Below, one piece after another: positions 1 through 63,305 of a stretch of DNA of 63,305 nucleotides (position 1 is its first letter; each line of letters starts with the position of its first letter). Below the pieces are notes generated by a model, which did no database searches, was not told where the DNA came from, and saw nothing but the letters and a program-made list of their open reading frames with translations. The position numbers and the translations under genes are program-made. Source of the stretch: a virus (Duplodnaviria > Caudoviricetes); IMG/VR virus record IMGVR_UViG_3300032087_001789, positions 1 through 63,305 of that record. One strand, 5' to 3'.

Positions 1-91
1 AACCCGAATCCGAAACGGAATCCCAAACCCCCTACCCCCGATGTTTACCGATTTGGTCAAAATAGTTTTAGGTTTTTGGTCACACGGGCGA
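1..91. repeat. Left copy of 91-bp direct terminal repeat (circular assembly overlap or true DTR)
   Basis: 1-91 is identical to 63215-63305. Confidence 0.95.
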
Positions 92-300: not shown

Positions 301-811
301 GGTAGGTTCAGTATTTACGGGGGATGCAGGGCGCTCGTACCCCGTGGATATTGACACTTTTGGTAATGTCCCAATGTGACCTTTTATGTTTTAGGAAAAA
401 CACCTCTGTATCCCAATGTTTATGGGGGTTCACGAATTGGCTCTTCGATTAAAGGTCAATCAGTCCTTTTATATTCTGTATCCCTTTGTTTACGGGGCTT
501 TACCTTGTGCGGATTAAGTTCCATCGGTACACCTATACTCTTTTTGACATATGCAACCCCTCTTTTCGGTATTTGGTCTGTGTTCCACGGCTGTATCCCT
601 TTGGTGGCTTGGGTTTCACGGGTTATTAACAACGATGAAAAAAAATAAAATAATTTGTAACTCGCTGAACATCAGAGGGTTTAACTCTTGTCAAGTGTTT
701 TTTTTGGGTTTGTGGATTTGAGTAGGTATAAAATACCAATTTTCACTTTTTTTGGATTTTTTTTCGATGGGCTTGAAATCTTCTGTATCCCGCTGTGGGC
801 TTGGGATAGAG
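301..811. repeat. Five CTGTATCCC-N11-GGG(TTTCAC/ATAGAG)-type imperfect inverted-repeat boxes
   Basis: Copies at 406-434, 476-504, 591-619, 783-811 and inverted at 301-329. Confidence 0.75.
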
Positions 812-904
812 GGCATTTCCTCGCGCGGGTCATATTAAGGCGATTTGGGGGTCTATTTTTTTTGGGGTTGCGTGGTATTGCTTTTTCGACCTACATTGCG
901 AATG

Positions 905-1545
905 TCAATCGGAAGGGTTGAGAGGGCGAGAGCCTCACATAAGAAGACCGACACCGAGACATCGAGGCAGAGATGCTGACTTCCCCGAGGGGATGCCGAT
1001 GTTACCGAGCCGATTCTGTTGCAGGACTAACAGATAAGCCACCCCGTAAGCCGAGCACCACGCTCAACGGATACTTGACCAACACCCACACCGCTTCGAG
1101 GTACGGATGAACGCTGAGAGTAGCAACCGCTATTGTATTACACAGACTCAGTCAGTAAGCCTACCGCAAAGCCATACGGACTGAACGAACAGAGCACCTT
1201 GGATGCAGGATGCACGAACGAACACCACGAACAGAAAACGGGATTCAGCAATGAGTACCGCAGTAGTAATGGTTAGTAGGGCTACCGCAAGAGTTCACAA
1301 GTAAGTCCACCGCAGTACGAAAGTGAGGGTCTGTTGCTTAGACCGAGAACGAGAACATCGCTACGAGGTGCGTACCAAGGTGCGCTCCAAAATCCTCTAT
1401 GTAGAGTCAGTATCAAAGCGTAGGTCTTTGACCCATTCCCGTGGGGTGTGTGTTGAGTCTCTCAGTACCGAAAGTGTTACGTAGAGTATGCGATTAGAGA
1501 ACGAGATGTCAAAGCACGGCAGAGCGAGACTGCCCACCCTACCTA
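905..1545 (+). ncRNA. Candidate large structured non-coding RNA (~630 nt)
   Basis: No credible ORF; many hairpins, GNRA loops, a 16-bp long-range helix 1192-1207/1369-1387 and a terminal T-loop-like hairpin 1518-1534. Confidence 0.7.
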
Positions 1546-1580
1546 ACCCGAGCCACCCACGGCTCACAAATTCAATTGCT

Positions 1581-1751
1581 ATGTACACAGCGACATTAGT
1601 TTACACAACCCCTATCTATGGTGGGGTTGAGCGTGTGAAACTCACTAAAAGAGGGGACAAATTCTTGGTAAAGGCGTTTATAAACTACCAAAGAAGTGTC
1701 CTACCAAGCGATGCAACCATTGTCTACGACTGCATCGTAAAGTCTAACTAA
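1581..1751 (+). CDS. Small early hypothetical protein (start moved to ATG 1581)
   Basis: ATG follows the repeated leader motif; the upstream part of the track ORF lies in the structured RNA. Confidence 0.6.
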   Translation: MYTATLVYTTPIYGGVERVKLTKRGDKFLVKAFINYQRSVLPSDATIVYDCIVKSN

Positions 1752-1756
1752 GACAA

Positions 1757-1809
1757 GGGTAGTGATAGACTGAGATAAGGTCTATGCCGAGGTCGTGCTC
1801 GGACTACCC
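1757..1809 (+). ncRNA. Three-way-junction tRNA-like element, copy A
   Basis: GGGTAGT/ACTACCC closing stem, TAGAC/GTCTA hairpin, CCGAG-GTCGTG-CTCGG hairpin; covaries with 3910-3963. Confidence 0.75.
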
Positions 1810-1839
1810 CCTAATATAAATCCACTAAAATCAAGTGTT

Positions 1840-2079
1840 ATGGCTAAGGTCACAAGAAGCACCTCGGGTGCTAAGTTCCTTTCAAATAAGGACAAATTCG
1901 ATGCGGTTCAATTCGCAGATTTCAATGTAAACCACAAACCTGCAGGAGGTCGTGCTGAGCGCCTCGCAATGAAACAGAGACTCGCAGAGGCAAAGGCTCT
2001 GTTGAGCGCTCCAAAAGAGGTAGTATCTGTAGGGTACGTTGAGGTAAAGTCTAACCTAAAATTCGCTTACGCAGTATGA
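1840..2079 (+). CDS. Small basic early hypothetical protein
   Basis: ATG 1840 in an AT-rich context, MAKVTRST... Confidence 0.7.
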   Translation: MAKVTRSTSGAKFLSNKDKFDAVQFADFNVNHKPAGGRAERLAMKQRLAEAKALLSAPKEVVSVGYVEVKSNLKFAYAV

Positions 2080-2521: not shown

Positions 2522-3898
2522 ATGCGTATGCGTTTTGTAGCAGATGTATGGGCTGTAGCCCAAATGAGTCTCGAGTTCAATAGAACTGAGGTATTGTGTA
2601 TGGCTGAAAAGAGCCAAGACTTATTCCGTAAAGCAGGTATCAATACCGCATCAACGGGTAAGATGAGCACCAAACAAGCGGTGCGTAAAATCGGTGCAGG
2701 TAGCAATCGTGAGTATAGCGAAAAGTATGGTACTGAGTTCATCAAGTTCATCGTGGGTTTCCGCAAGGCTGACAACACAATGTCGGTCTTCTACGAGGAT
2801 GACAATGGCGAGAGCCAAGTAGCGACATTCGCCACCCACGAGTTCTCTCAAGATGAGGGGCAGAGATTTACCCTCGGAACTTGGAACTACGCCATTCGCC
2901 AAGTGAAAGCAATCCGTGATGAGATGCTGAGATTCGCCACCTACGTTAGAGGCGAGGAAGAGAAAACACAACCGCAGACTGAGTCTGCACAAACCACACA
3001 AACTATGCAAGGACAAGACCCTATGCAGATGCTGACCCAAGCGTTGGCGATGATGTCTCAAAGTGGGGCATCAGTAGATGAGGCTCAAGTAGAGGCTATC
3101 GTTGAGCGTAAACTCAAGGATATCAAGCCCACCAAGGTTGAGGTCGTGACTGCGACTGCGACCAAGCGTGTTGAGACTGCACACAAGTCATTCGCTGATG
3201 CGGTGGCGCTTGTGGGTATGAAGAAGAACATCGCCTTGATTGGCGAGGCAGGAAGCGGTAAGTCTCACGGGGCTATTCAAATGGCTCGTGCCTTAGACTT
3301 AGACTATGTCGTTGAGTCTTGTCACGGCAAGATGCAGTCGTTCGATTTGGTTGGTGCTATCAGCCCGACAACGGGCGAGTACATCAGCACGAAATTGCGT
3401 GATGCATACGAGAATGGTAAGGTGCTCATCCTCGATGAGTTTGACCGCTCAAATACTGAGACTACCATTGCCTTGAATGGTATCCTTGCAGGGGACTGCT
3501 ACGGATTCCCCGATGGAATGGTTGAGCGCCACGCTGACTTCCGTGTGATTGCTTGTCAAAACACATTCGGTACGGGGGCATCTAAGACTTACGCCTCGGC
3601 TAAGCCTCAAGATGGTTCTACGCTCACTCGTTTCACTCGCATTGAGTGGAATATCGACACCAAGTTAGAGAAAGCGATTTGTGGCGATACTGAGGCTACT
3701 CGTGTAGTTCAGTCTATCCGCAAGAATGCTAAGGATAATGGCTACGACCAAATCCTTATCACGCCTCGCCAAGCGATTGACTGCAACCAAATGGTTGATA
3801 GCCTCGGTTGGACATTGAAGAAGGCTGTTGAGTTCTCTTGTTTGAACGGGCTTCCTGCAGATGTCAAGAAGCGTTTGTTGAATGGCGTATCACTATAA
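2522..3898 (+). CDS. MoxR/CbbQ/CobS-like AAA+ ATPase
   Basis: Walker A GEAGSGKS, Walker B LILDEFD, sensor ACQN, arginine finger TRF, ITPR motif. Confidence 0.9.
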   Translation: MRMRFVADVWAVAQMSLEFNRTEVLCMAEKSQDLFRKAGINTASTGKMSTKQAVRKIGAGSNREYSEKYGTEFIKFIVGFRKADNTMSVFYEDDNGESQVATFATHEFSQDEGQRFTLGTWNYAIRQVKAIRDEMLRFATYVRGEEEKTQPQTESAQTTQTMQGQDPMQMLTQALAMMSQSGASVDEAQVEAIVERKLKDIKPTKVEVVTATATKRVETAHKSFADAVALVGMKKNIALIGEAGSGKSHGAIQMARALDLDYVVESCHGKMQSFDLVGAISPTTGEYISTKLRDAYENGKVLILDEFDRSNTETTIALNGILAGDCYGFPDGMVERHADFRVIACQNTFGTGASKTYASAKPQDGSTLTRFTRIEWNIDTKLEKAICGDTEATRVVQSIRKNAKDNGYDQILITPRQAIDCNQMVDSLGWTLKKAVEFSCLNGLPADVKKRLLNGVSL

Positions 3899-3909
3899 CG
3901 ATTCGCTAA

Positions 3910-3963
3910 GGGTAGCGGACTGACTGCAACAAGGTCAGCGCTGAGGTCGTGCTCGGGCTACCC
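3910..3963 (+). ncRNA. Three-way-junction tRNA-like element, copy C
   Basis: GGGTAGC/GCTACCC, CTGAC-TGCAACAAG-GTCAG, CTGAG-GTCGTG-CTCGG. Confidence 0.75.
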
Positions 3964-4001
3964 ACTATTAACCGCCCACCACGGGCACAATACAATGCTA
4001 T

Positions 4002-4931
4002 ATGCGTTACGAAATCAAAGAAGACTACAAGACAGATTACCGCCACTCACGGAAAGGTAAACTGACCCTCACGCAGACTACATTCAGCGAGTTTGTTGAG
4101 ATGTCGAACCGAGAGGATGTCGAGCATTCCGATTGGGGTTCGGACTGCCGTGAAACGGGTTCGTTCTACGGCAACATCGGGTCGTACGAAGAGATGTATG
4201 ATGCGTGTTACAACGGAATGGGCGTGAAGAAAATGCTCAAGGCTCGTGCAGACTTGGGTGCGCTACTCAACCACGAGGTTGAAGAGCCACGCAAGGCGGT
4301 TGTGGGCGAGGCGCTCAATGTCGGGGCGTATTGCAACGGCAACCCGTTCCACTACTACAAGGATGCGGATGAGTTCGCTAAGCCTCGTGTACACATCGTG
4401 TACAGCACCAATGCGGTTGCAGGTGTGAGCGCTACGCAGTTCACACGACACGGGGGTGCGATTTGCGCCCTTGTTGACCAACTCGCTCAGCAGGTTGATG
4501 TGAAGATTAGTCTGTACATCAGCAACGAGAGTGTGTTCGGGGGTAACGGATGTCAAGTCGTGACTATCAAAGACTACGAAGATGTGGTCGATGTGCCTCG
4601 TGTATCCGCTACGGCTCATCCGAGTTTCTTCCGCAGAATTGGGTTCACTTGGTTTGAGAATGCAAGTAAGTTAATTCACTCGAGTATACGCTCGGGGTAT
4701 GGCGGTAGCCGTACGGGATATCAGCGTAGCAAGTACATCATCAGCGATGATGACTTCCGTGATTGGGTCGGGATGAACAACGATGAAATGGTTGTCGACT
4801 TCCCTGCACCCGATGAGGAGCAGTTCCGTGACAACGGCAGAACGGCACATTGGTTGAAGACTGCTATCAGCACCATTGAGAATGGTGTGCAGTCTAATGA
4901 AAACATTGTAAAACTATTCGGCTTATGCTAA
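4002..4931 (+). CDS. vWA/CobT-like partner of the MoxR ATPase
   Basis: Adjacent to the MoxR ATPase; G..LNVGAY..GNP segment, beta/alpha core, HPSFFRRIGF motif. Confidence 0.6.
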   Translation: MRYEIKEDYKTDYRHSRKGKLTLTQTTFSEFVEMSNREDVEHSDWGSDCRETGSFYGNIGSYEEMYDACYNGMGVKKMLKARADLGALLNHEVEEPRKAVVGEALNVGAYCNGNPFHYYKDADEFAKPRVHIVYSTNAVAGVSATQFTRHGGAICALVDQLAQQVDVKISLYISNESVFGGNGCQVVTIKDYEDVVDVPRVSATAHPSFFRRIGFTWFENASKLIHSSIRSGYGGSRTGYQRSKYIISDDDFRDWVGMNNDEMVVDFPAPDEEQFRDNGRTAHWLKTAISTIENGVQSNENIVKLFGLC

Positions 4932-5183: not shown

Positions 5184-5486
5184 ATGAGAGATGTAATCGT
5201 GGGCACACTTATGCTATCGAGTGGGGTATGGTTCTCACTTGGATTCGCCTACACAGACTTCGGTATGCTGTGGGTTGCGGTAGTCTTCGCACTACTGACC
5301 TTTGGTTTCTGCATCGCAGAGGCTATCTACAAGCGCAACTACAAGTCGTACGATGTACAGACTTACGAGTGCATTCGCTATGGCGATGAGTTCTTCCTAA
5401 AGGATGAACACGGGTCGGTACGCCCAAGCAATCGTGCCGAGGTATCTAAACTTTATTCTAAAAATCAAATCACAAAATTCAAATGA
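5184..5486 (+). CDS. Hypothetical membrane protein
   Basis: Two N-terminal hydrophobic segments. Confidence 0.7.
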   Translation: MRDVIVGTLMLSSGVWFSLGFAYTDFGMLWVAVVFALLTFGFCIAEAIYKRNYKSYDVQTYECIRYGDEFFLKDEHGSVRPSNRAEVSKLYSKNQITKFK

Positions 5487-11651: not shown

Positions 11652-11690
11652 TATATTTGTGCCCCTGCGAGAAATCGTGGGGGCGCTTTT
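11652..11690 (+). promoter_or_regulatory. TATATTTG promoter followed by a GAAA-capped GC hairpin and a U tract
   Basis: TATATTTG 11652-11659; GCCCCTGCGA-GAAA-TCGTGGGGGC-GCTTTT. Confidence 0.65.
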
Positions 11691-11691
11691 A

Positions 11692-11732
11692 CGAGAAGGA
11701 TAGGCGTACGGGGTTCGATTCCCTGCTTCTTG
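11692..11732 (+). ncRNA. Minimal tRNA top-half mimic, copy E
   Basis: 7-bp CGAGAAG/CTTCTTG, GATAGGCGTA linker, 5-bp CGGGG/CCCTG with TTCGATT loop. Confidence 0.7.
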
Positions 11733-11751
11733 ACAAATTAAATTAAATACT

Positions 11752-12168
11752 ATGAAAAAGTTCATTTCATTTGTAGCGTTGGCTACATTGCTGTCTTGCA
11801 CGGCACAACCACGAGTATTAGATATAGAATACGGAGCGTACTCTGTCGATTGGATTGCCGTTGAGGAATCGGGATGGGCAGGTGGCGTTGACTTCGACAC
11901 AACCATCCTCAGTCTGTGCGAGATTAGATTCGACTACGGGCAGATGTACACATTGGTGGATGGCGTGATTCAACCCGTACCTACGATGGGATTCATCTAC
12001 GAGACTAAGTTTGACTTTATGGTAGAACTGAGAGGGGACATCCTACAGATTGGTCTTGAGGAATGGGTAGTCGTTGAGACACCATTCGGATTTGAATTGA
12101 CACGCACTACCAACTACAATGGTATGGGCGTTCATTATCACACAATGCGATTAACAGAAATCAAATGA
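11752..12168 (+). CDS. Putative lipoprotein
   Basis: MKKFISFVALATLLSC lipobox. Confidence 0.75.
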   Translation: MKKFISFVALATLLSCTAQPRVLDIEYGAYSVDWIAVEESGWAGGVDFDTTILSLCEIRFDYGQMYTLVDGVIQPVPTMGFIYETKFDFMVELRGDILQIGLEEWVVVETPFGFELTRTTNYNGMGVHYHTMRLTEIK

Positions 12169-12745: not shown

Positions 12746-12909
12746 AGATGAACAAGACCCCACGTGTTGTGGTCACGCTCAAGGCTGAGGCATTCGGCAT
12801 CAAGTCTGTTGCCTACAAGACACCGAACAACCTATGGGTAACCAAGGTGCTCGAGTCCAAGCCTATCAGCGAATCTTTTCACTATAACGATGACAACTAT
12901 GATTCTTAA
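12637..12909 (+). CDS. Hypothetical protein
   Basis: ORF track. Confidence 0.6.
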   Translation: MEKRTIYLHRIEYRYKKGKGFNVRETEICSVCKTAIEMNKTPRVVVTLKAEAFGIKSVAYKTPNNLWVTKVLESKPISESFHYNDDNYDS

Positions 12910-13615
12910 ACCCAACCGACTTATAGACTTCTTCCCCGATGACAATCGCTTCCTGCATTTTGTCGCCAAGAAGAACGGTCTATTCTTCCTCAACGATGAT
13001 GATGTCGAGTCTGCAAGGTTCTTTGCCCTGCAGTCTGTTATGCGACTTGTCAACTCGGAGTATGAGTTTGAGGATGAGAAACATCTCTACTCTGTTGTGG
13101 AGATGAACGTACTGCGAGGTATCTACAGAATGATTGAGTGGAACTCATCTAACAAGAACTCGCAAGACATACGCCCCGAGAGTGACTTCATCGGGTCGGA
13201 TGATGAAGAGGGTCTACACACCCACATTACGACTGCACGTGCAGATGTCAAAGACTACGACAACACACTCGAGTTCATCGAGGAAGTAGCGCAGGAAATC
13301 TTAGATGACATTGGGTACGCAGTTTATGAATTGACATTGGGCGATGTCGCACGTAAGGATATATCCGAGCGCTTGGGCATCAGCACCGAGGCGGTTCGCC
13401 AACGTCAAAAGAGCAACATCAAAAAATTAAAGAAATACTACGACAAGTATGAGAATGACCAAAAAGATATTCGACAGACTCGTGCAGAAATACGAGGAAG
13501 AGTTCGACCTAAACCCACTAAAAAAATCAAGGCAACGGAACTTTCTTATTCCACGGCAAGTGCTTTTCTACGTACTCAATACGAAATTCCATTTGCACTT
13601 TCAGACCTTGAGTGA
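12890..13615 (+). CDS. Sigma-70/ECF-like factor (region 4 HTH)
   Basis: RKDISERLGISTEAVRQRQKSNIKKLK region-4-like HTH; region-2-like N-terminal helices. Confidence 0.7.
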   Translation: MTTMILKPNRLIDFFPDDNRFLHFVAKKNGLFFLNDDDVESARFFALQSVMRLVNSEYEFEDEKHLYSVVEMNVLRGIYRMIEWNSSNKNSQDIRPESDFIGSDDEEGLHTHITTARADVKDYDNTLEFIEEVAQEILDDIGYAVYELTLGDVARKDISERLGISTEAVRQRQKSNIKKLKKYYDKYENDQKDIRQTRAEIRGRVRPKPTKKIKATELSYSTASAFLRTQYEIPFALSDLE

Positions 13616-19862: not shown

Positions 19863-19916
19863 TCTAAGTCAATCGCACGACTATAAATTGCAAACACACC
19901 CACGGGAATGGGACAC

Positions 19917-19944
19917 AAAAAGAAAGGGGCTAACGCCCCTTCTT
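19917..19944. terminator. Terminator at the convergence of the two genome arms
   Basis: AAAAAGAAAGGGGC-TAAC-GCCCCTTCTT. Confidence 0.75.
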
Positions 19945-20037
19945 ACATTCATTACAATTGCACTCACGTCTTAGGACGGGTGCTGTCGGACAATACTGAC
20001 GTTTATCGTTAGTAGTCTGTTTCTTTTTTCTTTTCAT
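19930..20037 (-). CDS. 35-aa basic Cys-rich peptide (not in ORF track)
   Basis: MKRKKKQTTNDKRQYCPTAPVLRRECNCNECKKGR. Confidence 0.5.
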   Translation of the reverse strand: MKRKKKQTTNDKRQYCPTAPVLRRECNCNECKKGR

Positions 20038-20443: not shown

Positions 20444-23400
20444 TCAGTCTCTGTTTAAAATTAATACCATTTTTACTAATGCTCCTTCGCCTTCTTTGAG
20501 GGCGTAGTATTTTAAGAGGTCTTGCTCGAATGCTTTAGCCTCTTCTGTTGTCATTGACTTCATTACCTTCTTAGCGATGACTGCGGCATCACGTGGGTCT
20601 TGAGCCATCTTGTTGATATCACGGATAGTATTGATATACTTGTTGCTCGGTAGTTTGTCAGCCTCTACAGACTTGACCACCTTGTTTCCGATGATGGACT
20701 CGACACGACCCTCGATACCCGTTGGGTTGTCTCCGACCATACCTTCTACCGTTTCTTGAAGCAACTTAGTACCCTTTTCTCCTTCGTTGATAATCATACG
20801 ACCAATAGCCTCATTCTCGTTAGTGATACCACGCTCACCGATTTGACGCTCTCTTCTCTTGATTACTTGAATAGACTCCTTAGAGAATAGACCCGTGAAC
20901 GCACCCGTAGTCAACAGACTCAACTTAGCAGTCTCTAAGTTCATCATCTTCTTAGCATCCTCTGTAGATAGATACTTGGTAGTACCAAATGATGTTACGT
21001 AGTGAGGGTTGTCTTCACTCAATGTGCTTAGATTCTTAATAGATAGTGCGTATTCCGATATCATATCCCCGTATACACCTGCTGATTTCAACCACGTCAA
21101 CCAAGACGCATCCCCACGACCCACACTACTGAAGATTGGTAGACCATTAGCACGTTCCCACGCTTTGTAGTTCTCCCAAAAATCTCTATCCTCAAAGTCG
21201 TGTTCTCCATCCGAGAACGCTGTGTAGCCCACCAAGTTCAACATCTTAGTGTACATAGACTCCATAACCCCGATAGGTAGAACCAATGGGTTCATATCGG
21301 TAGCCATACCTTTCAAGAACATCTTCAAAGAGAACTCTCTGTCGAACCAAGAGTCTTCCTCTTCTCCTTCTCCGCCAATCAAAGAACCTGCAAGACCATT
21401 GATTATCGGAACGATAACGAACTGAGACATTGCGTGGAACGCAGCAACCTCGAGCGCAGTACCGCCAATAGACTTGGCTGCATTTGCTCTTGTCTCTCCT
21501 TTTCCTAAGTTACGGAAGTCTAACGCAAGGTTAATCTTCTTGTTGAGTAGGAAGTTAGCAAACGGCATAACCAACATTTGAATAACCGCAGCCACCTGTG
21601 AAGAGTTTAGTCTGTTGAAGTCTGACTTGTCGCGCTTCGTAGAAACGTTTTGGTCTTTCGCTACCATCGTAGATGCGTATGCACTTGCGCCCTCGTCGAT
21701 GTTTGCACCCCATTCAGCCCAAACCTCATCGCTGACCTGCCCATTGAAGCCATTCTCTTTACGCATATAACTCTCGTAGTACATCAACCAAGATGCAGTA
21801 GCCGCAACCTTATCGGTGTTACGTAGCGCAGCCGTAGACGCATCAAAGAATCCTTTACGCATACGCTTCCAACTATTCTTCTCAGCAAGAGCGTTACCCT
21901 CTACGGTAGCGTTAACAGTCTCTTTAATGTAGTCACGCTGACCGATGTCCGCTTGAGCCAAGATAGTGCGCTGTCCTTCGTTGTATTTACCCGTAGTGGC
22001 TGTCATAACGTACCCCAACAAGTGTAGTGGGTTACCACCTTCTATTATGGTGTTCATAATAGCCGAAGACTGCTTCAAGATTTGATTGAACACACCACCG
22101 AAGTAGTACAATACCGTTAGGTTGTTCATCTCGTTTGCAAACTTAGCCAAGTTAGTACCGAGCATTTGGTCTGTTGACCTTGCAACTGCGATATCATCAG
22201 TCAAGAACTGAACTATCTTGCGACGCATATCTCGTCTGTCTTGTGGGTCACGTACAACTTTTTTGAACTGCTCATTAGACTCAGAAGTCATAGCAGACAC
22301 TTTAGCAACGCTATATGCCGTGCGAGTCTTAACCTCATTTTGCCTGTACGTTCTGCTCAATGAAGAGTAGAAGTTCATATCAATGTATCTCGTCTTGCTA
22401 CCCATAGCGTTCTCATTACGCTCGTAGGTAGATGACGCTTGTCTGTTTGCTTTACTTAGATTGTAAGAGTTAAAGGCTGACTGAATGTTAGCCATATCGT
22501 CTTGAATCTTAGTGATGTCATCGTTCGTAGAGCCTACTGCACGGAATCCAATCGGCAGGTAGTTCTCTTCCTCTTTGAAGTTCATACCGAGGAACTCCTC
22601 AGCATAACGCTTGACCGCCTTGCCTTGTCTCTTAAAACGAGAGCGCAATTGGTCAATCATCTTCATCATATTCTTATCGGACTCGAGTTCCTTAACGATA
22701 GCGTTATAGTTCTTTTTCTTACCATTCTCGGTGTAGAACACAGAATCCAAAGTCTCTCTAATCTCTTTTCTTTGATTTTTACCCTTACCTCTTAGTCTAC
22801 CACCGCTACTCCAACGTGGGTCGTTAGACAGACTCAACTCAAAGTTAGCAATCACCTGAGCCAAATACTGAGTCTGATTCACGCCTTCAGGCTTCTGAGT
22901 CAGGACAGAGTAAATCTGCATACGTACCTGAGATGCTATCGAAGTCTGTCCGAACTGCTTAGCCAACTTGATGAGGTCTTGGTTGAAGTCCTCTGCAATT
23001 TTATCAGCCAAAGATGCTTCGTTACGTAGCGATGAGAATCCTGAGATTTCCATAAACTTAGCGATACGAGCCTCGGATGACTTGAAGATACGACGCATAA
23101 ACGTAGGCGTGTTCTCGAAACGAGATGACACCCAATGCAACGGAGTCTTCTTAGCAGTCTCTCTTGACTGCAGACCAAGTGCTTTCAGCGCTTTGTTTCC
23201 GTCGTTCTTAGCAACTGCAGATGCAGCCAATGCGTTGATACCCAATGCCTTACCGTTTACAGCGAAGTCATACATAGCGAACTCTAAACGCTTCAACTCT
23301 AACGGAGTCAGCGCATCCATTCTGCTCTTGACTATTGATGCTGCAACGTCGTCTTCCATCTCTTCGGTGATACCAAAAATGGCGGCGAAGTTAGGGTTAG

Positions 23401-26400
23401 ACTCGTATAGTCTGCGGAAGTTCAGGAACGTTGGGATGATAGCCTCATCTATGATGACTTGTCTGTTCTTGTTCAACTGCTCCTCCTTGGCTTCAGCGTA
23501 CAACTCCAATGCCGCCTCGAAGTCGTTAATATCGTTGAGGTCAAGCCCCATTTCATCAGCGATGGCGGTTAGTTTTTTCTGTACACCCTTGAGTTCTTTC
23601 TCGTTGATTTGACGCATCAAACCTTCGTACTCAGTAACCCAATCTGTTCCATTCTCAAAGGCTAAGTCTGCAGCCTTTTCAACTAACTGTTTCTCCTGTA
23701 GGGATACCTCTTCTACCTTTAGTCTCTCGAAGATTTCGTTGAAGTATACCTTCGCGCGACGCATATCTACTTTTCCTAAACCTTCAATCTCAACATAAGG
23801 ATTAGATAATTCACCCTTTCTTACTGAGACAGATTTAGTAGAGATATTCAAGTCTTTGATTGTATCCTCTAATAACTGTAAACTCTCTGCACTTAGTAGA
23901 GCAGGGTTAATACTTGTAATATCAAGAATCTGTTCTGCATAACTAATGAGAGGACTACGTGATGTAGGTTTTAGTTTTTTAAATCTGTTTCTTAAATCTT
24001 TTTGTGCTTTCTCTACACGCTTCAATTGGTTGATGTAATCGTTAAGACCTTTAGCATCCATCTGCTTCTCTACAATCTTAACAACTTTGTCAACAACAGA
24101 GTTCAGTACCTCGTATCTAATATCGGGGTCAACAGCATTACGACCTTTCATCTTAGCAACCTTGGCTGCAGTACGAATCAACTGAGCAACCTGAGTAGGC
24201 TTAATCTCTACCCCTGCTTCTTTGATGACACGAATCATCTCGTTGATAATGTTTCTGTTTACCTTCTTCTCTGTCTTGAGGACAGCCGCTAATTTCTTAC
24301 GTAGGTCTTTAGCCTTGCTTGACTCAGCCTTACGCTCTGCTTTGCGCTTCGCAGCCAACTGAGCAGAACGCTCACGAGTTCCCTCTTTCCAACCTTGCTT
24401 AACGCCTCTTGCATTCTGTGATGCTTTAGCGTAGATAAGGTTAGCATCAGCACGGCTCATACCCTTAGCACGTAATGAGGCGATGATATCAGCCTTCTTT
24501 TCGCCGAGTAGGATGCGCTGTGCAATGCTTGTAATGATTGTAGATTGGAAGAAGACTCCTGCCTTACGCTTAGTCTCGGGGTTAACAGACTCCTGCATAT
24601 CCTTGAAAGATACACCCTCAATCTCAGCGGCACGTTCCAATACCATACCAACAGGTAGGGACAGCATTTCAAAATTACCCTCCTTGTTTTTAAACTCACG
24701 AACCTTAGCATTTCCTTCTTCGGTCAACTGAGTCGCAGCCTCTTGTAAGACATTCATACGACCCTCTAAAGTCTGACCAACGATTAGAGACTCTAATAAT
24801 GTTTTTCCATCGTAAGAAGTACCTGCATCAGAAACAATACGCTTCAATGATTTGTCTCCCGCTTTTTCTGCAGAGACATAACCGCTTTTTGCTGTGAGTC
24901 TGTCTGCTAAATAAGTCTTGCCCTGCCCTCTTAGTCTTCCTGCAACACTACGTATAATGTCTCCTTTTGCTTTGTTGCGTTTTTTCTCGTCTTCGATGGC
25001 GTTAATTTCGTCAACTTGCGCTTGGGTTAACTCCCCTGCCTCAACCAATAGTTCTAATTGTTGCTTACCCGAAAGTTTGACTTCTGTTGTAGTAGATGCT
25101 GACAGGTCGGCAATTTGATATATGTTATCCTTTCTGTTAGCAATACCAAGAGCCTTACCTTTAATATCTGTGCTGTATGTGGAGTGATTTCCGTCTTGGG
25201 TAACTACTCTCCCGTCAGCGTCTCTTTCAAACTCGTAGAACGCATAGATGTCTCCCGTGGTAAACTCGTTTTCAACCAAGTATCCGTCTCGCATATCGTT
25301 TTGATAATCGAAATCAGACTTCATTCCCAAGTTCTCCATAAAGGCTTTCATCTCACCACTTGTGGTTAAGAACATATCCAAGCCGCTCATTCTGTCTCCT
25401 TTAGACTCCTCTAAATAAGAATCAAGTGTGTCGTGCTTTGCGATTTCTTCCATAAAGTTACCTCGACCCTCTTTCTTATCCTCTTTGGACTCTTTGTAAA
25501 TTGCAGCAGGTTTTTTACCGTTTTCTGCTAAACTATTATAGAAGAATTTGATAGCCTGTAATGGGTCTGTAAATCCTTCAGTTGGAACATCTATGTTAAA
25601 CTTCTTACCACGAGCAGGAAACTCAATAGACTTTCCTTTGTTTCTATTGAACGCTTCCATTAACTCCGTGTAGACCACCCTTGATGTACCTTTGTAGAAT
25701 CTGTGACCCGTTTCAGGTTTACCTGATACAATAGCAACGATGTCAGCATCTTTCACAAGACCTTGAACCTCGTTGTTGTTTTTGTTAGTAGCCCATACCA
25801 CTCCCTTGTCTGTGTTAGCAGGGTCTTGAGAGAATGATATACCACCCTCTAACTCAATCTTAGTACCATCTAACGTGGTGTAAGTACCACGAGCAGATTG
25901 GTCACCCATCCAAAATAGAATCTTAGGTGGTCTGCCGTTTTCTTTCTCGAAGTTCTGTACTACTGTAGCAAGGTTTGTGAACTTTGTATCCTCGTTAATG
26001 AACGAACCTGCAAAGGTCTTGCCCTTAGCAACCTTGATAGTAGCCTTTTTAACCTTAGCCATAAGTTTAGACTTAACGGGATGCTGAAGCGCCCCTTGGC
26101 TATTGTCATCTTTTAGTTTGTTTTCCGATAGTTGGAAGAATACATTTGCAGACCTTTGATTTACGTTTGCAGCATCAATGTAAGTCTTAGTTGTATTCTG
26201 TGATGTTACATCTACAATAGCATCTAAGATAGAAGTACCTTCAACAACACCGAAGTCTCCGTATACCGTCTTGATTAGATTAGCAACCATTGCCTTGAAA
26301 GCATCAAACAGAGTAGACCCTGTGAGGGTAAACCCTTTGCTCTCTATGAGGTTTTGAGTCTTGCTATCTAACGGGATACTACCGATAGTCTGTTGGAATC

Positions 26401-29400
26401 TTAGGTTAGAGAATGCCTCTGCGACAAACTCGTGCACGTCGGTAAACCCATACTGCCCCAAAAGCGACTCAGAGCGTTCGTCTTGGCTGTTCTCTATGAA
26501 TGACTTAGCGTCAGCCATAAGAGCATCCAAAGTCTCTCTAAACGCAGGATTACTCTCAAGTTGCAACGAGGTAAATCCGTGAATTGCTTCGTGTAGCAAT
26601 GTTGATGCAAAGTCGTTAAAGTTCTTTACACCTTCAGAGCCTTGGTTTACGACAATAGTATTGTCTAAGTAAGGATTCCAAAAACCATATAGTTTAGTAT
26701 TCTCTTCTTGGAATATGTGGTCTGACAAAGAACCATCATCTACGATTACGTTCATCTTGTTTAGGATGCCCATATTCTTTAAAACTTTCAAGCCATCCAA
26801 TGTGTCTTGGTCAATGTTTTCAGAAGACATACTATCGTCAAGCAATGAGTTCACTACATCAAGTGCAGAGAATCCCGACTGCTGAACTCCAAACAACAAT
26901 GTGTTTCTATACCAATTACCCCAAGCCTTAGACTCCTCGTTAAGTTCGAGTTTCTCGTGCTGTTGGATAATGTTGTCAATGTTCTTTTCTGTTACGCTTC
27001 TTTTCGCTGTGTCAGGGTTTACATTAGGCGTTAGTCCGAATCTTTCGTTTAGCCAATTACCCATAAGGGTGTTAGAGGTGTTAACTTGGAAGAATGTACC
27101 TTCCTTGACCTTACTCTCTCCGAATCGACCCATAGTCTCAGTAAGCATCTGCCCCGATTGGAAGTCACCTGCTACAGACTCGACATATTTGGCGAACTGT
27201 GAGAACGTACCGTTACGCTTTAGGTTGATACCAAGGACAGCGCCAACAGTTTTACGCAGACTCTCCATACCCGCACGGACAACACTTGCCCCTGCTCCCT
27301 CCATAGAGATGTCTCCTACAGCGATATCCGCAGCCATTTCAGCGAATGTTTCCTCGATAGCCAAGGCTTCACCGCCTTGCTTCATAGCCGCTCTGTATAT
27401 TTGGACATACTTAGCACGAGTCGCTCTATCCATACCATTGAATGCTGCGTCTATAAATCGCTTAGCATACTTAGGGTCTACCTTGCGTAGAATCTTGTGG
27501 AATCCTTCGTGGAATGCTGTGTTGTTCTGAGCCATATTCGCCATAATGTGAATAGACCCATCCTCAGCCATATAAAAACCGTTAGAACCTGCAAGAGTCT
27601 GTTTGTCTACTCCTGAGATTGCTTCAGCGTCGTCTAAGTTTTTGTGCAAGAATACCTTGCCTTCGCCTTTAAACACGTTAGCCACATTTTTAATGCCTCG
27701 CATAAGTGGTGTGTCAGGCAGTTCTGTATTTTCATCAACCTCTATACTCGTAGTCATACCGCCTACAAATTCAGAGTTTGCTTGTTTTTGCGCTTTCATT
27801 TCAGCGATTTGAGGCTCATACTTGGCTTCAATCGCTTTGATAGAGTTGTATTGTTCTTTTGCTTCCGCACGTAGACGCGCTCTTTCCTCTTTGCTTAGGC
27901 TTTTTTCTTGGCGTAACCTACGCATATTCTCAGAAAGCCCTTGATTTAATTCTACGGTACGCTGAGCATCCTCGTCTGTGTATTGTTCGTAGACGCCTTC
28001 CATTTCGGTCTGCATCTGAATCTCCAACTTAGACAGAGTTTTGAGTTTAGTCTGTATCGCTTCGCGTCTTCTTGCGTCTGTAGTATTGCGTAGTTCCTCA
28101 GCAAGTTTCTGTTTGTTATTGCGAATCTTAATAAGGTCGCTACGCAAACCACCAAAGCCCATAGCAGAAACACCTGCGGTAAGAAGACCACGTCCTTGGA
28201 TAGCCGCTTTGACAGATGTAGAACCTGCACCCATACCAAACCCTACAATAGCAGAGTCAAGCAATTCATAGATGTTAGGCATCTCTTCGTCGTTTGCAAT
28301 GGAGTGAACCACGCCCGAACCAACGGTTGCAATAATCTCTTCTACAGCCTCTTCAGAACCTTGCTTTACGAATTTAAGACCTGCATCTTTTGCAAAGTCT
28401 CTTAGTTCCTTGGACAGCAAACCTTTCTTAAACAGAGTCTGCTTAATCTCTTGACGGCTCATATTTGCAAAAGCACCTTTACCTGCAAGTGCTTTAATAT
28501 CCGATGCAAACACACGCTCAGAGAACAATTCAACAGCGGCATCTCCAAGAGCCATAGTGAATGCTGTTCCATCGTCCATATGTTTTCCGTACGTGTCAGC
28601 CCAAGTTCTACCAAACGTAGACAGACCCATAAATGCAGAAGAACTCCATAACATAACAGAGTTACCCAACCCACGTGTAAAGTATGCTACTGCCGCTTGT
28701 GCTATCAACTGAGGTGCAGTCTGAGCGGCTTGGTGATAGAACATAGCACGAGCAGCCCTAAGGTTTCCTTCTGCAAGGTTTTCCGAAACGCCTTTTGATA
28801 TTTCGTCGTCCGTTAAGTCCCAACCTTCTTTTAGGTTGGCTTGACTACGGAATGAGTTGTCGTACATATCTACTGCAGCGCCGTGTCTGTCGTACAGAGA
28901 TTGGAAACTGTTTCCCAAGTCCATAACACCCGTACCAAAGTCGTACATAAAGTTACCGAAAGCACCAAGATTATCATCCCACCATTCAGCGTCTTCTACA
29001 TCTTCTGCGTATCTTTTTGCATTGTATCTGCTAATAACTTGCAGTTCCCCGAAAGTTTGTCGTGTAGGCTCTCCGATAAACTCGCCTGTGCGAAGGTCTA
29101 TTATATCATCAGGGGTAGGTTCGTGACCAATATTAAGCATCTCTTTGACGGTTGTTGAGTAATATTCCCCTTTCTTATGTACAGCAGACTCGTCAAATAC
29201 ATTTCCCCCCTCGTCAAGAAACTCATTTAAAAGCCAAACAGAAGGTTCTGTCCCTCCATAATATTCATTGTGTAACTCAATTTTATCGTCGTAAGCCGCT
29301 AAAAGTGCTTTATCTCCGTTTATTTGTCCCCCCTGTAATTGGCGCACAAGCCTAATAACATCTTCTTTGCTTTCCGCTTGACGGATAGCCTTAACCATAA

Positions 29401-30205: not shown

Positions 30206-30231
30206 GATGTCATCATTTGTTTCTGATAACA

Positions 30232-30239
30232 CAAATATA
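30232..30239 (-). promoter_or_regulatory. Bacteroidota -7 promoter TATATTTG
   Basis: Intergenic, upstream of the giant gene. Confidence 0.75.
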
Positions 30240-63214: not shown

Positions 63215-63305
63215 AACCCGAATCCGAAACGGAATCCCAAACCCCCTACCCCCGATGTTTACCGATTTGGTCAAAATAGTTTTAGGTTTTTGGTCACACG
63301 GGCGA
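63215..63305. repeat. Right copy of 91-bp direct terminal repeat
   Basis: Identical to 1-91. Confidence 0.95.

What the first reader, a model, noticed from the sequence alone, without database searches (positions are those of the whole stretch)
905..1545. Candidate ~630-nt ornate non-coding RNA at the head of the early region
Seen: no credible ORF, but dense pairing. A long-range helix joins GAGCACCTTGG-ATGCA (1192-1207) with TGCGT-a-CCAAGGTGC-gc-TC (1369-1387). CATCGAGGCA/TGCCGATG (960-1001) encloses TCCC/GGGA. Other stems are TCTGTT/AACAGA (1015-1034), CCGT/ACGG around GAGC/GCTC (1044-1070), AGTAGC/GCTATT, TCAGTC/GACTGA (1148-1184), GGTCT/AGACC (1328-1344) and TCAAAG/CTTTGA, with GNRA loops GAGA, GCAA and GAAA. 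The last hairpin, GGCAG-AGCGAGA-CTGCC (1518-1534), is followed by CACCCT, which can pair with AGGGTTG at 914-920 and close the whole molecule. Known: phages carry large ornate RNAs (GOLLD, ROOL) of largely unknown function. Inference: this may be a new or distant large phage ncRNA transcribed first after entry, in a genome that otherwise wastes almost no DNA.
Basis: partly seen in the sequence, partly recalled or inferred. Interest (0 to 1): 0.88.

Follow-up and report, generated by a model that had tools for sequence, protein, structure and literature searches.

The report
New large structured phage RNA
A conserved, intricately folded non-coding RNA of about 640 bases sits just before the early genes of a small group of marine phages, matches no described RNA family, and its job is still unknown.

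Summary
The ORF-free stretch is real, and it is a conserved structured RNA on the + strand, about window 903-1546.

- **Energy test fails.** Folding energy is no better than shuffles (z -0.73), so that test does not support it.
- **Comparative evidence is strong.** Homologues occur in about 24 distinct viral and metagenome contigs in six clades (47-65% identity between clades A-D). On 14 sequences, a curated model of 71 pairs in 16 helices is 89.8% paired (slid controls 29-40%). It has 32 pairs changed on both sides (slid controls 5-10).
About two thirds hold. The closing helix 914-920/1535-1540, TCAGTC/GACTGA, GGCA/UGCC and the flanks of the long-range helix do not.
- **The long-range helix.** Its 6-nt core is best read as a kissing contact between two hairpin loops. 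It covaries: CCUUGG/CCAAGG, CCUCGG/CCGAGG, CCUAAG/CUUAGG.
- **Databases.** No Rfam family matches.
- **Expression.** Contigs of four RNA libraries from four studies carry parts of it, which is weak evidence of transcription.
- **Upstream.** A conserved sigma-70-type promoter lies directly before it.
- **3' domain.** It is an elaborated copy of a Y-shaped module that also separates the early genes.
- **Closest analogue.** The unexplained abundant early long ncRNAs of Cellulophaga phage phi14:2, which show no sequence similarity.
- **Function.** Inferred only: a stable early RNA that serves as a binding platform.

The parts
782..840 (+). Conserved upstream block (CTGTATCCC...GGGCTTGGGATAGAGGGC..CCTCGCGCGGGTCATATTAAGG). 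It is the last of four direct repeats and its role is unknown.
   Evidence: Repeats at 405, 475, 590 and 782. All four exact CTGTATCCC copies lie in 406-791. The block is kept in all clades aligned.
868..900 (+). Inferred sigma-70-type promoter: -35-like TTGCGT (868-873), an 18-nt spacer, and a -10/-7-like TACATTGC (893-900). The predicted start is about 903-906.
   Evidence: TTGnnn and TAnnTT are kept at fixed spacing in clades A-E (alignment A3; L043). Clade F reads TTGTTT-17-TACATTTG. The tool's consensus scan did not call it. The reading is inferred and was not tested.
903..1546 (+). The structured RNA: conserved from UGUCAA to ACCUAA, 644 nt.
   Evidence: Homologues. Covariation. G-U pairs fit the + strand only.
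910..956 (+). 5' stem. It comprises P1 (910-912/954-956), P1b (916-919/946-949), the P2 hairpin (924-927/932-935, loop GAGA), and the conserved internal loop GAGA...CACAUAAGAAG (936-946).
   Evidence: helices 1-3: 7 of 11 pairs changed on both sides. Examples are GGGC/GCCU against CUCU/GGAG, and GGUU/GACC against AUAU/GUAU against GUAC/GUAC. Separate MFE folds recover P1/P1b in six of the seven full-length A-C and E segments (not L001) and P2 as modelled in win, L001 and L002.
959..1002 (+). Three-way junction: P3 (959-964/997-1002), P3a (967-969/974-976, GNRA loop) and P3b (982-985/990-993).
   Evidence: The same junction is recovered by separate MFE folds of win, L001, L005, L015, L043, L002 and L017, with different stem sequences. 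P3a is GCA/UGC against GCC/GGC.
1015..1070 (+). Clade-A-specific hairpins P4 (1015-1020/1029-1034) and P5 (1044-1046/1068-1070 with 1053-1056/1062-1065).
   Evidence: P4 is UCUGUU/AACAGA against UCUACA/UGUAGA within clade A. Clades B, C and E carry a different helix around a CCC-GA-GGG hairpin.
1100..1165 (+). P6 (1100-1103/1162-1165) closing a three-way junction of P7 (1113-1118/1147-1152), P7a (1120-1124/1129-1133) and P7b (1135-1137/1141-1143).
   Evidence: helices 5-8. P7a is 97.1% paired with 4 of 5 pairs changed on both sides. P7 is 92.9% paired. P6 is GGUA/UACC in clades A and B. In clade D, by my reading, it is GGAGG/CCUCC and GGUGG/CCACC.
1187..1296 (+). P8, a long-range 4-bp helix (1187-1190/1293-1296) enclosing HP1 and the central insert with the GCAA hairpin P9 (1243-1247/1252-1256).
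   Evidence: helix 9: 95.8% paired, 4 of 4 pairs changed on both sides (GAAC/GUUC, GGAU/GUCC). L023 reads GGAC/GUCC. P9 is helix 12, 78.8% paired.
1194..1206 (+). HP1: a 3-bp stem (1194-1196/1204-1206) presenting the loop CCUUGG (1197-1202).
   Evidence: Stem versions are GCA/UGC, GCG/CGC, GCC/GGC, UGA/UCA, GUC/GAC and GCAU/AUGC.
1365..1397 (+). P12 (1365-1368/1394-1397) around HP2 (1370-1374/1381-1385, loop CCAAGG 1375-1380) and the conserved CCAAAA (1387-1392). The HP2 loop is complementary to the HP1 loop, giving a 6-bp kissing contact.
   Evidence: in 13 of 13 clade A-D sequences the exact complement of the HP2 loop occurs once upstream, inside HP1. L003 has CCUCGG/CCGAGG. Clade E has CCUAAG/CUUAGG. 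HP2 is 100% paired (helix 13). P12 versions GAGG/CCUC, GUAG/CUAC, GUAC/GUAC, GAGUC/GACUC and GAGUA/UACUC were read.
1430..1546 (+). 3' domain. It comprises the invariant linker GACCCAUUCCC (1430-1440), the closing helix PA (1441-1448/1535-1542), an arm ending in the invariant GUUAC-GYAGA-GUAU hairpin (1476-1489), the hairpin PD (1518-1522/1530-1534, loop AGCGARA) and the tail CUAA.
   Evidence: 19 pairs, 96.6% paired (slid controls 29-50%), 8 pairs changed on both sides, covariation 0.379 (slid controls 0.008-0.073). Model R1 finds it in clade E at 44.5 bits.
1550..1580 (+). Hairpin GAGCC-ACCCAC-GGCUC plus ACAAAUUCAAU, directly before the first ATG (1581). It is outside the conserved RNA and recurs before the ATGs at 2522 and 4002.
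   Evidence: (D5). It is absent after the RNA in L001 and L028, where the first ORF is missing.

Best explanation
Window 903-1546 (+) encodes a multi-domain structured non-coding RNA of a family that is not in Rfam.

Identity (shown): it is shared by a small group of marine phages. The genomes are about 60-65 kb with short terminal repeats and a crAss-type muzzle protein. The nearest cultured kin infect Flavobacterium and Cellulophaga.

Fold (shown by covariation):
- a 5' stem with a conserved purine-rich internal loop;
- two three-way junctions;
- a central part held together by a 4-bp long-range helix;
- a 6-bp contact between two hairpin loops that co-vary;
- a Y-shaped 3' domain.

Expression (inferred): the host RNA polymerase makes it from a conserved -35/-10-type promoter that ends about 5 nt upstream. 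It is therefore the first product of the rightward early unit.

3' end (inferred): the 3' Y domain is an elaborated copy of the Y-shaped modules that follow the early genes. I take these modules to mark the ends of RNA units, by termination, processing or protection. If so, the RNA is set apart from the downstream mRNAs and persists.

Action (inferred): it acts in trans as a folded platform. Its invariant unpaired motifs are CACAUAAGAAG, GCAGGAUGCAC, CCCCAAAA, GACCCAUUCCC, the GYAGA pentaloop and the AGCGARA loop. These would bind one or more phage or host proteins during takeover.

My odds:
- real structured RNA: 0.9
- separate stable RNA rather than only a leader: 0.55
- protein-binding platform or decoy as the mode of action: 0.35
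For: Conservation:
- The ORF-free region is kept in relatives found through the neighbouring ATPase: 91.5% identity over 1-1546 in L001 and 68% over about 500 nt in L004/L005, where the ATPase is 61-62% identical.
- A motif scan of metagenome contigs gave 17 of 17 homologous loci.
- Clades A-D are 47-65% identical to each other.
- Clade E was found by model R1. Clade F was found by blastn.

Covariation:
- Alignment A3 holds 14 of the 18 sequences. L013, L014, L024 and L027 were left out as near-duplicates.
- On A3, 71 pairs in 16 helices are 89.8% paired. The shuffle mean is 77.6% (0 of 500 shuffles as high) and slid controls give 29-40%.
- 32 pairs change on both sides (slid controls 5-10). 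The covariation score is 0.323 (slid controls 0.03-0.06).
- The 3' domain alone is 96.6% paired with covariation 0.379.

Strand: the recurrent G-U pairs GU:9 at 793/892 and at 422/436, and UG:6-7 at 192/221, 200/205 and 711/721, would be C-A on the other strand.

Kissing loops: three complementary versions sit at homologous hairpins.

Independence from the next gene: L001 and L028 lack the first ORF but keep the RNA.

RNA libraries: contigs of 4 of 4 laid RNA libraries, from 4 studies, lie on 912-1156, 955-1193, 962-1439 and 990-1450.

Y modules: 1752-1818 and 3905-3972 fold as 7-bp stem plus two hairpins, with z -3.3 and -2.7. In clade F the RNA ends in just such a plain module.

Analogy: phi14:2 makes abundant, early, rightward, persistent long ncRNAs from intergenic regions near its left end (passages of 10.1101/2020.03.07.982082 read).
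Against: - Folding energy is no better than shuffles on either strand. The 3' domain alone gives z -0.8 to -1.5.
- The curated structure was derived from the same sequences on which it was counted. Relatedness inflates shuffle controls, and the measure 'further pair types' was not significant (44 of 500).
- The effective number of lineages is small, about 6-8. Recombination between clades (mosaic 3' alleles) means changes are not all independent.
- The RNA-library evidence is contigs only. The tool states that this does not show transcription and that DNA can be present. No start, end or strand was seen.
- No terminator-like site follows the RNA, so a read-through leader is quite possible.
- In 2 of 4 distinct clade-F sequences the loop pair has one C-A mismatch, and the hairpin sits in a different order.
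- A loop-loop 6-mer complement of some kind arises in 54 of 300 shuffles of the window RNA, so the contact rests on covariation and not on its mere presence.
- The invariant GUUACGYAGAGUAU hairpin is absent in clades E and F.
- No partner protein is identified. The small neighbouring ORFs match no Pfam or PHROG family.
Confidence: 0.5

Rival explanations
1. It is a cis-acting structured 5' leader of the early polycistronic mRNA. It would be transcribed with the early genes and would work only by controlling their transcription, stability or translation, for example by attenuation or anti-termination. It would not be a separate RNA product.
For: - There is no terminator-like hairpin with a U run after 1546.
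- The same hairpin-plus-ACAAAUUCAAU signal follows the RNA and also precedes other early ATGs.
- A small alternative hairpin, CCCA/UGGG at 1432-1445, competes with helix PA, which could make a switch.
- The GYAGA pentaloop has the form of lambda boxB loops. That comparison is my recollection and was not tested.
Against: - The RNA is kept while the downstream ORF is lost or replaced (L001, L028, L019).
- 640 nt in more than 16 helices is far more than known leaders need.
- The Y module at its 3' end recurs after coding genes, where it cannot be a leader.
Confidence: 0.3
2. The conserved element works as DNA, for example as a replication origin, a packaging or ejection signal, or a cluster of operator sites near the genome end. 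On this view the pairing reflects DNA hairpins or chance.
For: - It lies 0.8 kb from the 91-bp terminal repeat.
- It lies next to four direct repeats and a stretch of 35% G+C.
- The imperfect palindrome CCCATTCCCGTGGG occurs a second time, at about 19899-19912 on the minus strand.
Against: - Many conserved G-U pairs are possible on one strand only.
- Nested long-range helices and a loop-loop contact covary.
- There is a strong A-over-T skew in the + strand, +0.28 to +0.35 over 901-1400.
- Parts of the element are carried by contigs of RNA libraries.
Confidence: 0.05
3. It is a degraded or recoded protein-coding region, or the apparent pairing is chance in an unconstrained spacer.
For: - The MFE z-scores are unremarkable.
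- Clade B has a stop-free run of 148-151 codons on the minus strand.
Against: - Most of the six frames carry stops of two or three kinds in the 9 representatives. The open runs are not conserved between clades.
- Blocks of 11-17 invariant nucleotides alternate with stems that change on both sides.
- Slid-partner controls fall to 29-40% paired.
Confidence: 0.03

Closest known systems
Early long non-coding RNAs of Cellulophaga phage phi14:2 (intergenic regions g004-g005 and g005-g006; Drobysheva et al., bioRxiv 10.1101/2020.03.07.982082, passages read)
   Same: Both are phages of marine Flavobacteriia with crAss-type virion genes. Both have ORF-free regions of 0.6 kb or more near the left end, ahead of the rightward early genes. 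[quoted passage not shown] Function is unknown in both.
   Different: There is no sequence similarity: blastn found only 10-20 nt chance matches and model R1 gave no hit on L031. One of the two phi14:2 regions matches tmRNA (46 bits against a gathering score of 47, E 2.6e-16), whereas ours matches nothing. phi14:2 early genes are transcribed by a virion RNA polymerase with no common promoter motif. Ours has a conserved sigma-70-type promoter. Its 3262-aa ORF has no DFDxD motif and no Pfam or PHROG family.
ROOL, GOLLD and OLE: large ornate bacterial and phage RNAs (Rfam; cryo-EM paper PMC12286853, seen as a search listing and abstract only)
   Same: The size class is the same (500-800 nt). All have many helices with covariation, strongly conserved unpaired motifs and no known biochemical function. 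ROOL and GOLLD are often phage- or prophage-borne (recalled). They form homo-oligomers (abstract).
   Different: No covariance-model match at E <= 10. The helix layout differs. Ours is fixed at the head of the early operon of one lineage of virulent-looking phages. Oligomerisation was not tested here.
phi29 pRNA (packaging RNA)
   Same: Both are encoded near the left genome end. Both carry two loops complementary to each other; in pRNA these join molecules hand in hand. This comparison is my recollection and comes from no call.
   Different: pRNA is 120-174 nt and belongs to protein-primed phi29-like phages. It is in Rfam and gave no hit. This phage has an ordinary large terminase and portal. 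Here the loop contact may equally be within one molecule.
T7-type early region: tandem left-end promoters, a non-coding leader and structured RNase III sites between the early genes
   Same: Both have promoters at the left end, a non-coding first transcript segment, and a structured element after each early gene. The T7 side of the comparison is recalled.
   Different: The T7 leader is not a conserved multi-domain fold. The modules here are Y-shaped three-way junctions, not RNase III hairpins. No processing was shown here.

Membership tests
Any Rfam 15 family (GOLLD, ROOL, OLE, tmRNA, RNase P, group I/II introns, 6S, phage pRNA, HEARO and others) | A match to the family covariance model at or near its gathering score | tested here: not met
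   The gathering search of the whole window gave 0 matches. The permissive search of 1-2600 at E <= 10 gave only ceN113 snoRNA at 1873-1934 (-), 19.6 bits against a gathering score of 40. Nothing fell in 903-1546.
tmRNA / tRNA-like RNAs | A tRNA-like acceptor/T-arm domain and a tag reading frame, detectable by ARAGORN | tested here: not met
   ARAGORN found 0 tRNA or tmRNA genes in the window.
phi14:2 early long ncRNAs | Sequence or structure homology to the phi14:2 intergenic regions at 2904-4602 | tested here: not met
   blastn gave only 10-20 nt matches at E 2.8-9.7. Model R1 gave no hit on L031.
phi14:2 early long ncRNAs | Early, rightward, abundant and persistent transcription during infection | not testable with these tools
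   Only contigs of metatranscriptome libraries could be laid. There is no time course, strand or level.
ROOL/GOLLD-type self-assembling RNAs | Homo-oligomeric assembly through intermolecular contacts | not testable with these tools
   The complementary HP1/HP2 loops covary. Sequence analysis cannot tell a contact within one molecule from one between molecules.
phi29 pRNA | A 120-174 nt RNA of phi29-like phages with the pRNA fold (an Rfam model exists) | tested here: not met
   No Rfam hit. The length is 644 nt. The phage carries a 707-aa large terminase and an 811-aa portal of PHROGs 6681 and 6547.
Protein-coding gene | A conserved open frame | tested here: not met
   no frame is open across clades, and most frames carry stops of several kinds.

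The most novel reading that the evidence does not exclude
The two co-varying complementary hairpin loops (CCUUGG and CCAAGG) may join different copies of the RNA rather than fold one copy. The RNA would then build a homo-oligomeric ring or cage early in infection, as ROOL and GOLLD do and as phi29 pRNA does on a smaller scale. It would be an RNA-only scaffold or compartment used for host takeover by a whole lineage of marine phages. The Y-shaped modules would be a new kind of RNA punctuation that releases it from the early transcript.
Probability: 0.12. Interest if true: 0.9.

Novelty: new variant of a known kind. Interest (0 to 1): 0.72.

Why it matters
Large RNAs with many conserved helices are rare. 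Most classes found so far, such as ribozymes, OLE, ROOL, GOLLD and the guide RNAs of IscB/TnpB, have led to new biochemistry.

This one is fixed at the very start of the early programme of a lineage of uncultured marine Bacteroidota phages. It is better conserved than the protein genes that follow it. It carries a co-varying loop-loop contact and several invariant unpaired motifs that call for a partner.

The abundant, unexplained early ncRNAs of phi14:2 point the same way. Together they suggest that starting infection with a structured RNA may be common among phages of marine Flavobacteriia.

The model gives concrete handles for experiments: helix coordinates, compensatory pairs, a promoter and clade variants. 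The recurring Y-shaped modules may define how these phages delimit their early RNAs.

Tried and rejected
- **Energy z-scores** of the whole region and of the 3' domain were not significant. I do not use them as support.
- **RNAalifold on whole-length alignments** gave the local helices but also long-range pairs that differ between runs. I kept only helices seen by compensatory change or in separate folds.
- **Two 4-bp long-range candidates** came from the covariation scan. 1187-1190/1293-1296 was kept because clade D agrees. 1095-1098/1318-1321 (UUCG/CGAA against UACU/AGUA) was dropped because clades C and D could not confirm it.
- **MAFFT Q-INS-i and X-INS-i** are not installed.
- **L011 and L012** share only the 16-mer and were dropped as chance.
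- **The promoter-plus-5'-end pattern scan** of viral contigs gave 59 loci. Only 2 carry the next motif, and both are known contigs.
- **The genome-contig scan** found nothing.
- **No similarity to phi14:2**.
- **Model R1** did not find the intergenic Y modules or clade F.
- **Alignment A5** of the 5' domain was too shifted in clades C and D to count pairs, so I did not count on it.
- **Read laying**: none of the four RNA libraries had a contig on 1-911 or 1451-2073, and contig word depth was 11.7-13.1 on the RNA against 2.6-7 on the early-gene contigs of X10. By the tool's own rules, uncovered parts and contig depths are not evidence of a transcript start or of level. The contig ends at 990, 1439 and 1450 coincide with mosaic allele borders.
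- **Antisense targets** of the invariant motifs in the genome: none convincing.
- **Generic search for loop-loop complements**: it recovers the clade E pair but misses the 3-bp stems of other clades. 54 of 300 shuffles give some pair, so it cannot serve as a significance test.
- **The search of earlier findings** was not open.
Full report
**Setting**

The window is a complete virus record of 63,305 bases with 91-bp direct terminal repeats.
- Rightward genes occupy about 1.6-19 kb. They include an AAA ATPase, a primase/helicase, an exonuclease and a sigma-factor-like protein.
- Leftward genes occupy 19-62 kb. They include the portal, the large terminase and a protein with the Crassvirus muzzle domains.
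- The nearest cultured relatives by terminase are Flavobacterium phages of the 'elemo' group (39% identity) and Cellulophaga phages.
- All homologous contigs come from aquatic, mostly marine, metagenomes by their names and run labels. A marine Flavobacteriia host is therefore an inference.
- The first 1,580 bases hold no credible ORF. The finding covers the last 640 of them.

**Checking the observation**

The region does not fold better than chance by energy.
- + strand: MFE -184.2 kcal/mol against -180.1 +/- 5.6 for 20 dinucleotide shuffles (z -0.73; 5 shuffles as good).
- - strand: z -0.27.

However, energy z-scores are known to be weak for long RNAs, and the comparative data decide the matter.

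Rfam gives nothing.
- The gathering search of the whole window had 0 matches.
- The search at E <= 10 on 1-2600 gave one 19.6-bit snoRNA match outside the region.

**Relatives**

- The ATPase at 2522-3898 led to five viral contigs. All keep the ORF-free region: 91.5% identity over 1-1546 in L001, and about 68% over about 500 nt in L004/L005, whose ATPase is only 61-62% identical.
- A 24-base gapped motif from two invariant blocks found 17 metagenome contigs, all homologous.
- After removing identical copies, 18 sequences fall into four clades that are 47-65% identical to each other:
  - A: window, L001, L028, L019, L029
  - B: L005/L014, L004, L013, L015, L018, L024, L025, L027
  - C: L002, L017
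  - D: L003, L023
- A covariance model of the 3' domain (R1) was searched over the window, 80 terminase-anchored viral loci and the phi14:2 locus. It added a fifth clade, E: L043, 494 nt, 44.5 bits.
- ORF-free stretches in phages whose terminase is only 71% identical revealed a sixth clade, F: L056=L170, L052, L169 and the cut-off L168. It shares the promoter, the 5' stem with CACAUAAGAAG, and the 3' end.
- Phages still further away had either no flank or no detectable homologue.
- No GTDB genome holds the motif.
- The alleles are mosaic. For example, the 3' domains of L017 (clade C), L023 (D) and L029 (A) are those of other clades. These phages therefore recombine within the RNA.

**Structure**

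I built the model from compensatory changes and checked it in three ways: by hand on the sequences, by a covariation-first scan, and by separate folds of homologous segments. Window coordinates are given under 'parts'.

The elements are:
- a 5' stem (P1, P1b, P2) whose internal loop GAGA...CACAUAAGAAG is conserved in five of six clades;
- a three-way junction (P3, P3a, P3b);
- a variable region: two hairpins in clade A and a different helix in clades B, C and E;
- a second three-way junction (P6, P7, P7a, P7b);
- a 4-bp long-range helix P8 that encloses hairpin HP1 and a central insert with a GCAA hairpin. The insert is missing in clade D;
- helix P12 around hairpin HP2 and the conserved CCCCAAAA;
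- a 3' domain, in which helix PA (GUGGGGYG with CRCCCYAC) closes two arms. One arm ends in the invariant GUUAC-GYAGA-GUAU hairpin. The other is the hairpin PD with the invariant loop AGCGARA.

Counts on alignment A3 (14 of the 18 sequences; four near-duplicates left out) for the 71 shared pairs in 16 helices:

| Measure | Observed | Shuffle control | Slid-partner controls |
|---|---|---|---|
| Cells paired | 89.8% | 77.6% (0 of 500 as high) | 29-40% |
| Pairs changed on both sides | 32 | | 5-10 |
| Covariation score | 0.323 | 0.132 | 0.03-0.06 |

The 3' domain on 14 distinct sequences has 19 pairs, 96.6% paired, 8 pairs changed on both sides, and covariation 0.379 against 0.008-0.073 for slid controls.

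Caveats:
- The structure was derived from these same sequences.
- The lineages are few and recombining.
- One measure (further pair types) was not significant.

Many conserved G-U pairs would be C-A on the other strand. The folded strand is therefore the + strand. This also argues against a purely duplex-DNA element.

About two thirds are right (see the observation check).

Four are not. The closing helix 914-920/1535-1540, TCAGTC/GACTGA, GGCA/UGCC and the flanks of the long-range helix were counted together. They show no covariation: 25 pairs, 1 pair changed on both sides, score 0.080 against a shuffle mean of 0.076.

The flanks of the 'long-range helix' instead form two local stems that covary.
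- HP1 versions: GCA/UGC, GCG/CGC, GCC/GGC, UGA/UCA, GUC/GAC, GCAU/AUGC.
- HP2 versions: GCGUA/UGCGC, GCGCA/UGCGC, GCUA/UAGC.

The 6-nt core is left in the two loops. The loops stay complementary.
- CCUUGG/CCAAGG in 12 of 13 clade A-D sequences.
- CCUCGG/CCGAGG in L003.
- CCUAAG/CUUAGG in clade E.
- In clade F, L169 has CCUUGG/CCAAGG. L170 and L052 have CCUCGG against CCAAGG, one mismatch, and the first hairpin sits in a different order.

I read this as a kissing contact. Its mere presence is not significant, since some such pair occurs in 54 of 300 shuffles. Its covariation at homologous hairpins is what supports it.

**Expression**

A -35-like TTGnnn and a -10/-7-like TAnnTT(TG) lie 16-18 nt apart, directly before the conserved 5' end in all clades.
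- Window: TTGCGT-18-TACATTGC.
- Clade F: TTGTTT-17-TACATTTG.

This fits both sigma-70 and the Bacteroidota TAnnTTTG box. A start at about 903-906 is inferred.

Thirteen RNA-labelled runs from at least seven studies share 31-mers with the region. All four that I laid, from four studies, have contigs on parts of 912-1450. The tool warns that this shows presence in an RNA library, not transcription. No ends, strand or level can be read from it.

No terminator-like site follows the RNA.

**The 3' end and the Y modules**

Three structured modules lie between the early genes. Two of them, 1752-1818 and 3905-3972, directly follow the stop of the preceding ORF. In those two, a 7-bp stem (GGGUAGU/ACUACCC, GGGUAGC/GCUACCC) closes two hairpins, the second with loop GUCGUG. 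The stem is followed by CCUAAU or ACUAUU. They fold with z -3.3 and -2.7. The copy at 2418-2492 folds less clearly.

The RNA's 3' domain has the same plan: closing helix, two arms, then CUAA. In clade F the RNA ends in a plain module with loop UUCGUG. In L001 the RNA's tail is joined to the tail of the first module, with the first ORF lost.

I therefore take the 3' domain to be an elaborated member of a family of 'end-of-unit' modules. What they do is not shown; termination, processing and 3' protection are all possible.

**What it most likely does**

Shown:
- It is a conserved, multi-domain, + strand RNA fold.
- It is more conserved than the ORF that follows it.
- It has invariant unpaired motifs.

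Inferred:
- It is made from its own host-type promoter as the first product of the rightward unit.
- It is delimited by the Y module.
- It acts in trans as a folded platform that binds protein(s) during takeover.

The main rival is a purely cis-acting leader (0.3). The loss and replacement of the downstream ORF, and the size of the fold, speak against that, but nothing excludes read-through. DNA-level and coding readings are unlikely.

**Comparison with what is known**

The nearest analogue comes from a paper of which I read passages (10.1101/2020.03.07.982082). In Cellulophaga phage phi14:2, two long intergenic regions near the left end are transcribed rightward. They are present at the first time point, exceed most coding genes in level, and do not decline. 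The authors call them long ncRNAs of unknown function.

I fetched that region. It has no similarity to ours. One of its two parts scores as tmRNA just under the gathering score.

ROOL, GOLLD and OLE are the same kind of object but not the same family. phi29 pRNA shares the left-end position and the complementary loops only.

Literature searches found no description of this RNA:
- structured RNA, bacteriophage, covariation, metagenome, large noncoding;
- crAss-like, non-coding RNA, early genes, virion RNA polymerase;
- Cellulophaga, phage, long non-coding RNA, intergenic, transcriptome.

The main text of PMC10690425 does not mention crAss, Bacteroidota or Flavobacteria. Its supplementary lists, which I could not open, may contain the motif.

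**Verdict**

This is a real, new family of large structured phage RNA, with a corrected fold and a co-varying loop-loop contact. Its function is not established.

Noticed in passing
window 1-91 and 63215-63305: Exact 91-bp direct terminal repeat. Contigs of relatives (L003, L005) begin at almost the same base, so the window start looks like a true genome end.
   Followed up: partly
window 405-433, 475-503, 590-616, 782-805: Four direct repeats beginning CTGTATCCC and ending in GGG, in a T-rich stretch of low G+C (35-44%). All exact copies of the 9-mer in the genome lie here. Only the last copy, with the block up to 840, is conserved in all clades. They may be iterons, operators or extra promoters.
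   Followed up: partly
window 1752-1818, 2418-2492, 3905-3972: Y-shaped structured modules between the early genes: a 6-7 bp closing stem GGGUAnn/nnUACCC and two hairpins, the second with loop GUCGUG in two copies, followed by CCUAAU or ACUAUU. Two of the three fold with z about -3. They have the same plan as the 3' domain of the large RNA.
   Followed up: partly
window 1550-1580, 2498-2521, 3975-4001: A 4-5 bp hairpin (GAGCC/GGCUC, GACCC/GGGUC, GCCC/GGGC, loop ACC(C)AC) followed by ACAA(A)T(T/A)CAAT, directly before three early start codons. It recurs before several early genes in L003. It may be a translation or processing signal.
   Followed up: no
window about 19895-19945, minus strand: A terminator-like hairpin with a U run (AAGGGGC-GUUA-GCCCCUU UUCUUUUU) is followed by CCCAUUCCCGUGGGUGUGU. 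This is a second copy of the invariant linker and PA 5' strand of the RNA. Model R1 gives a weak hit here (16.5 bits, E 0.34).
   Followed up: partly
window 20444-30232, minus strand: A 3262-aa ORF with no Pfam or PHROG family and no DFDxD motif by a simple pattern. Whether it is a virion RNA polymerase like that of crAss-like phages is open.
   Followed up: partly
L031 (phi14:2, NC_021806) 4031-4502: The g005-g006 'long ncRNA' region of phi14:2 matches the tmRNA model over its full length (46 bits, gathering score 47, E 2.6e-16). The region 2904-3590 remains unexplained.
   Followed up: partly
L001 about 5214-5221; L028; L019 (alignment A3, columns 890-952): The 56-aa first ORF (window 1581-1751) and its upstream hairpin are absent in L001 and L028. 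In L019 the hairpin is followed directly by the homologue of the second ORF. The first ORF is therefore dispensable or not a gene.
   Followed up: partly
3' domains of L017, L023, L029, L002: Mosaic alleles: four or five versions of the variable arm of the 3' domain are shared across otherwise different clades. This implies frequent recombination inside the RNA gene.
   Followed up: partly
window about 11690-11745: A T-arm-like sequence (GGTTCGATTCC) lies upstream of the ORF at 11752, yet ARAGORN reports no tRNA in the window and Rfam reports none.
   Followed up: no
window 40896-40906: The conserved 11-mer GCAGGATGCAC of the RNA occurs once more, on the minus strand inside a late gene. About 0.03 such matches are expected by chance.
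   Followed up: no
window 12890-13615: An ORF with weak similarity to RNA polymerase sigma factors (PHROGs 1740 and 351, E 3e-6 and 1e-5). It suggests that the host polymerase is redirected for later genes.
   Followed up: no
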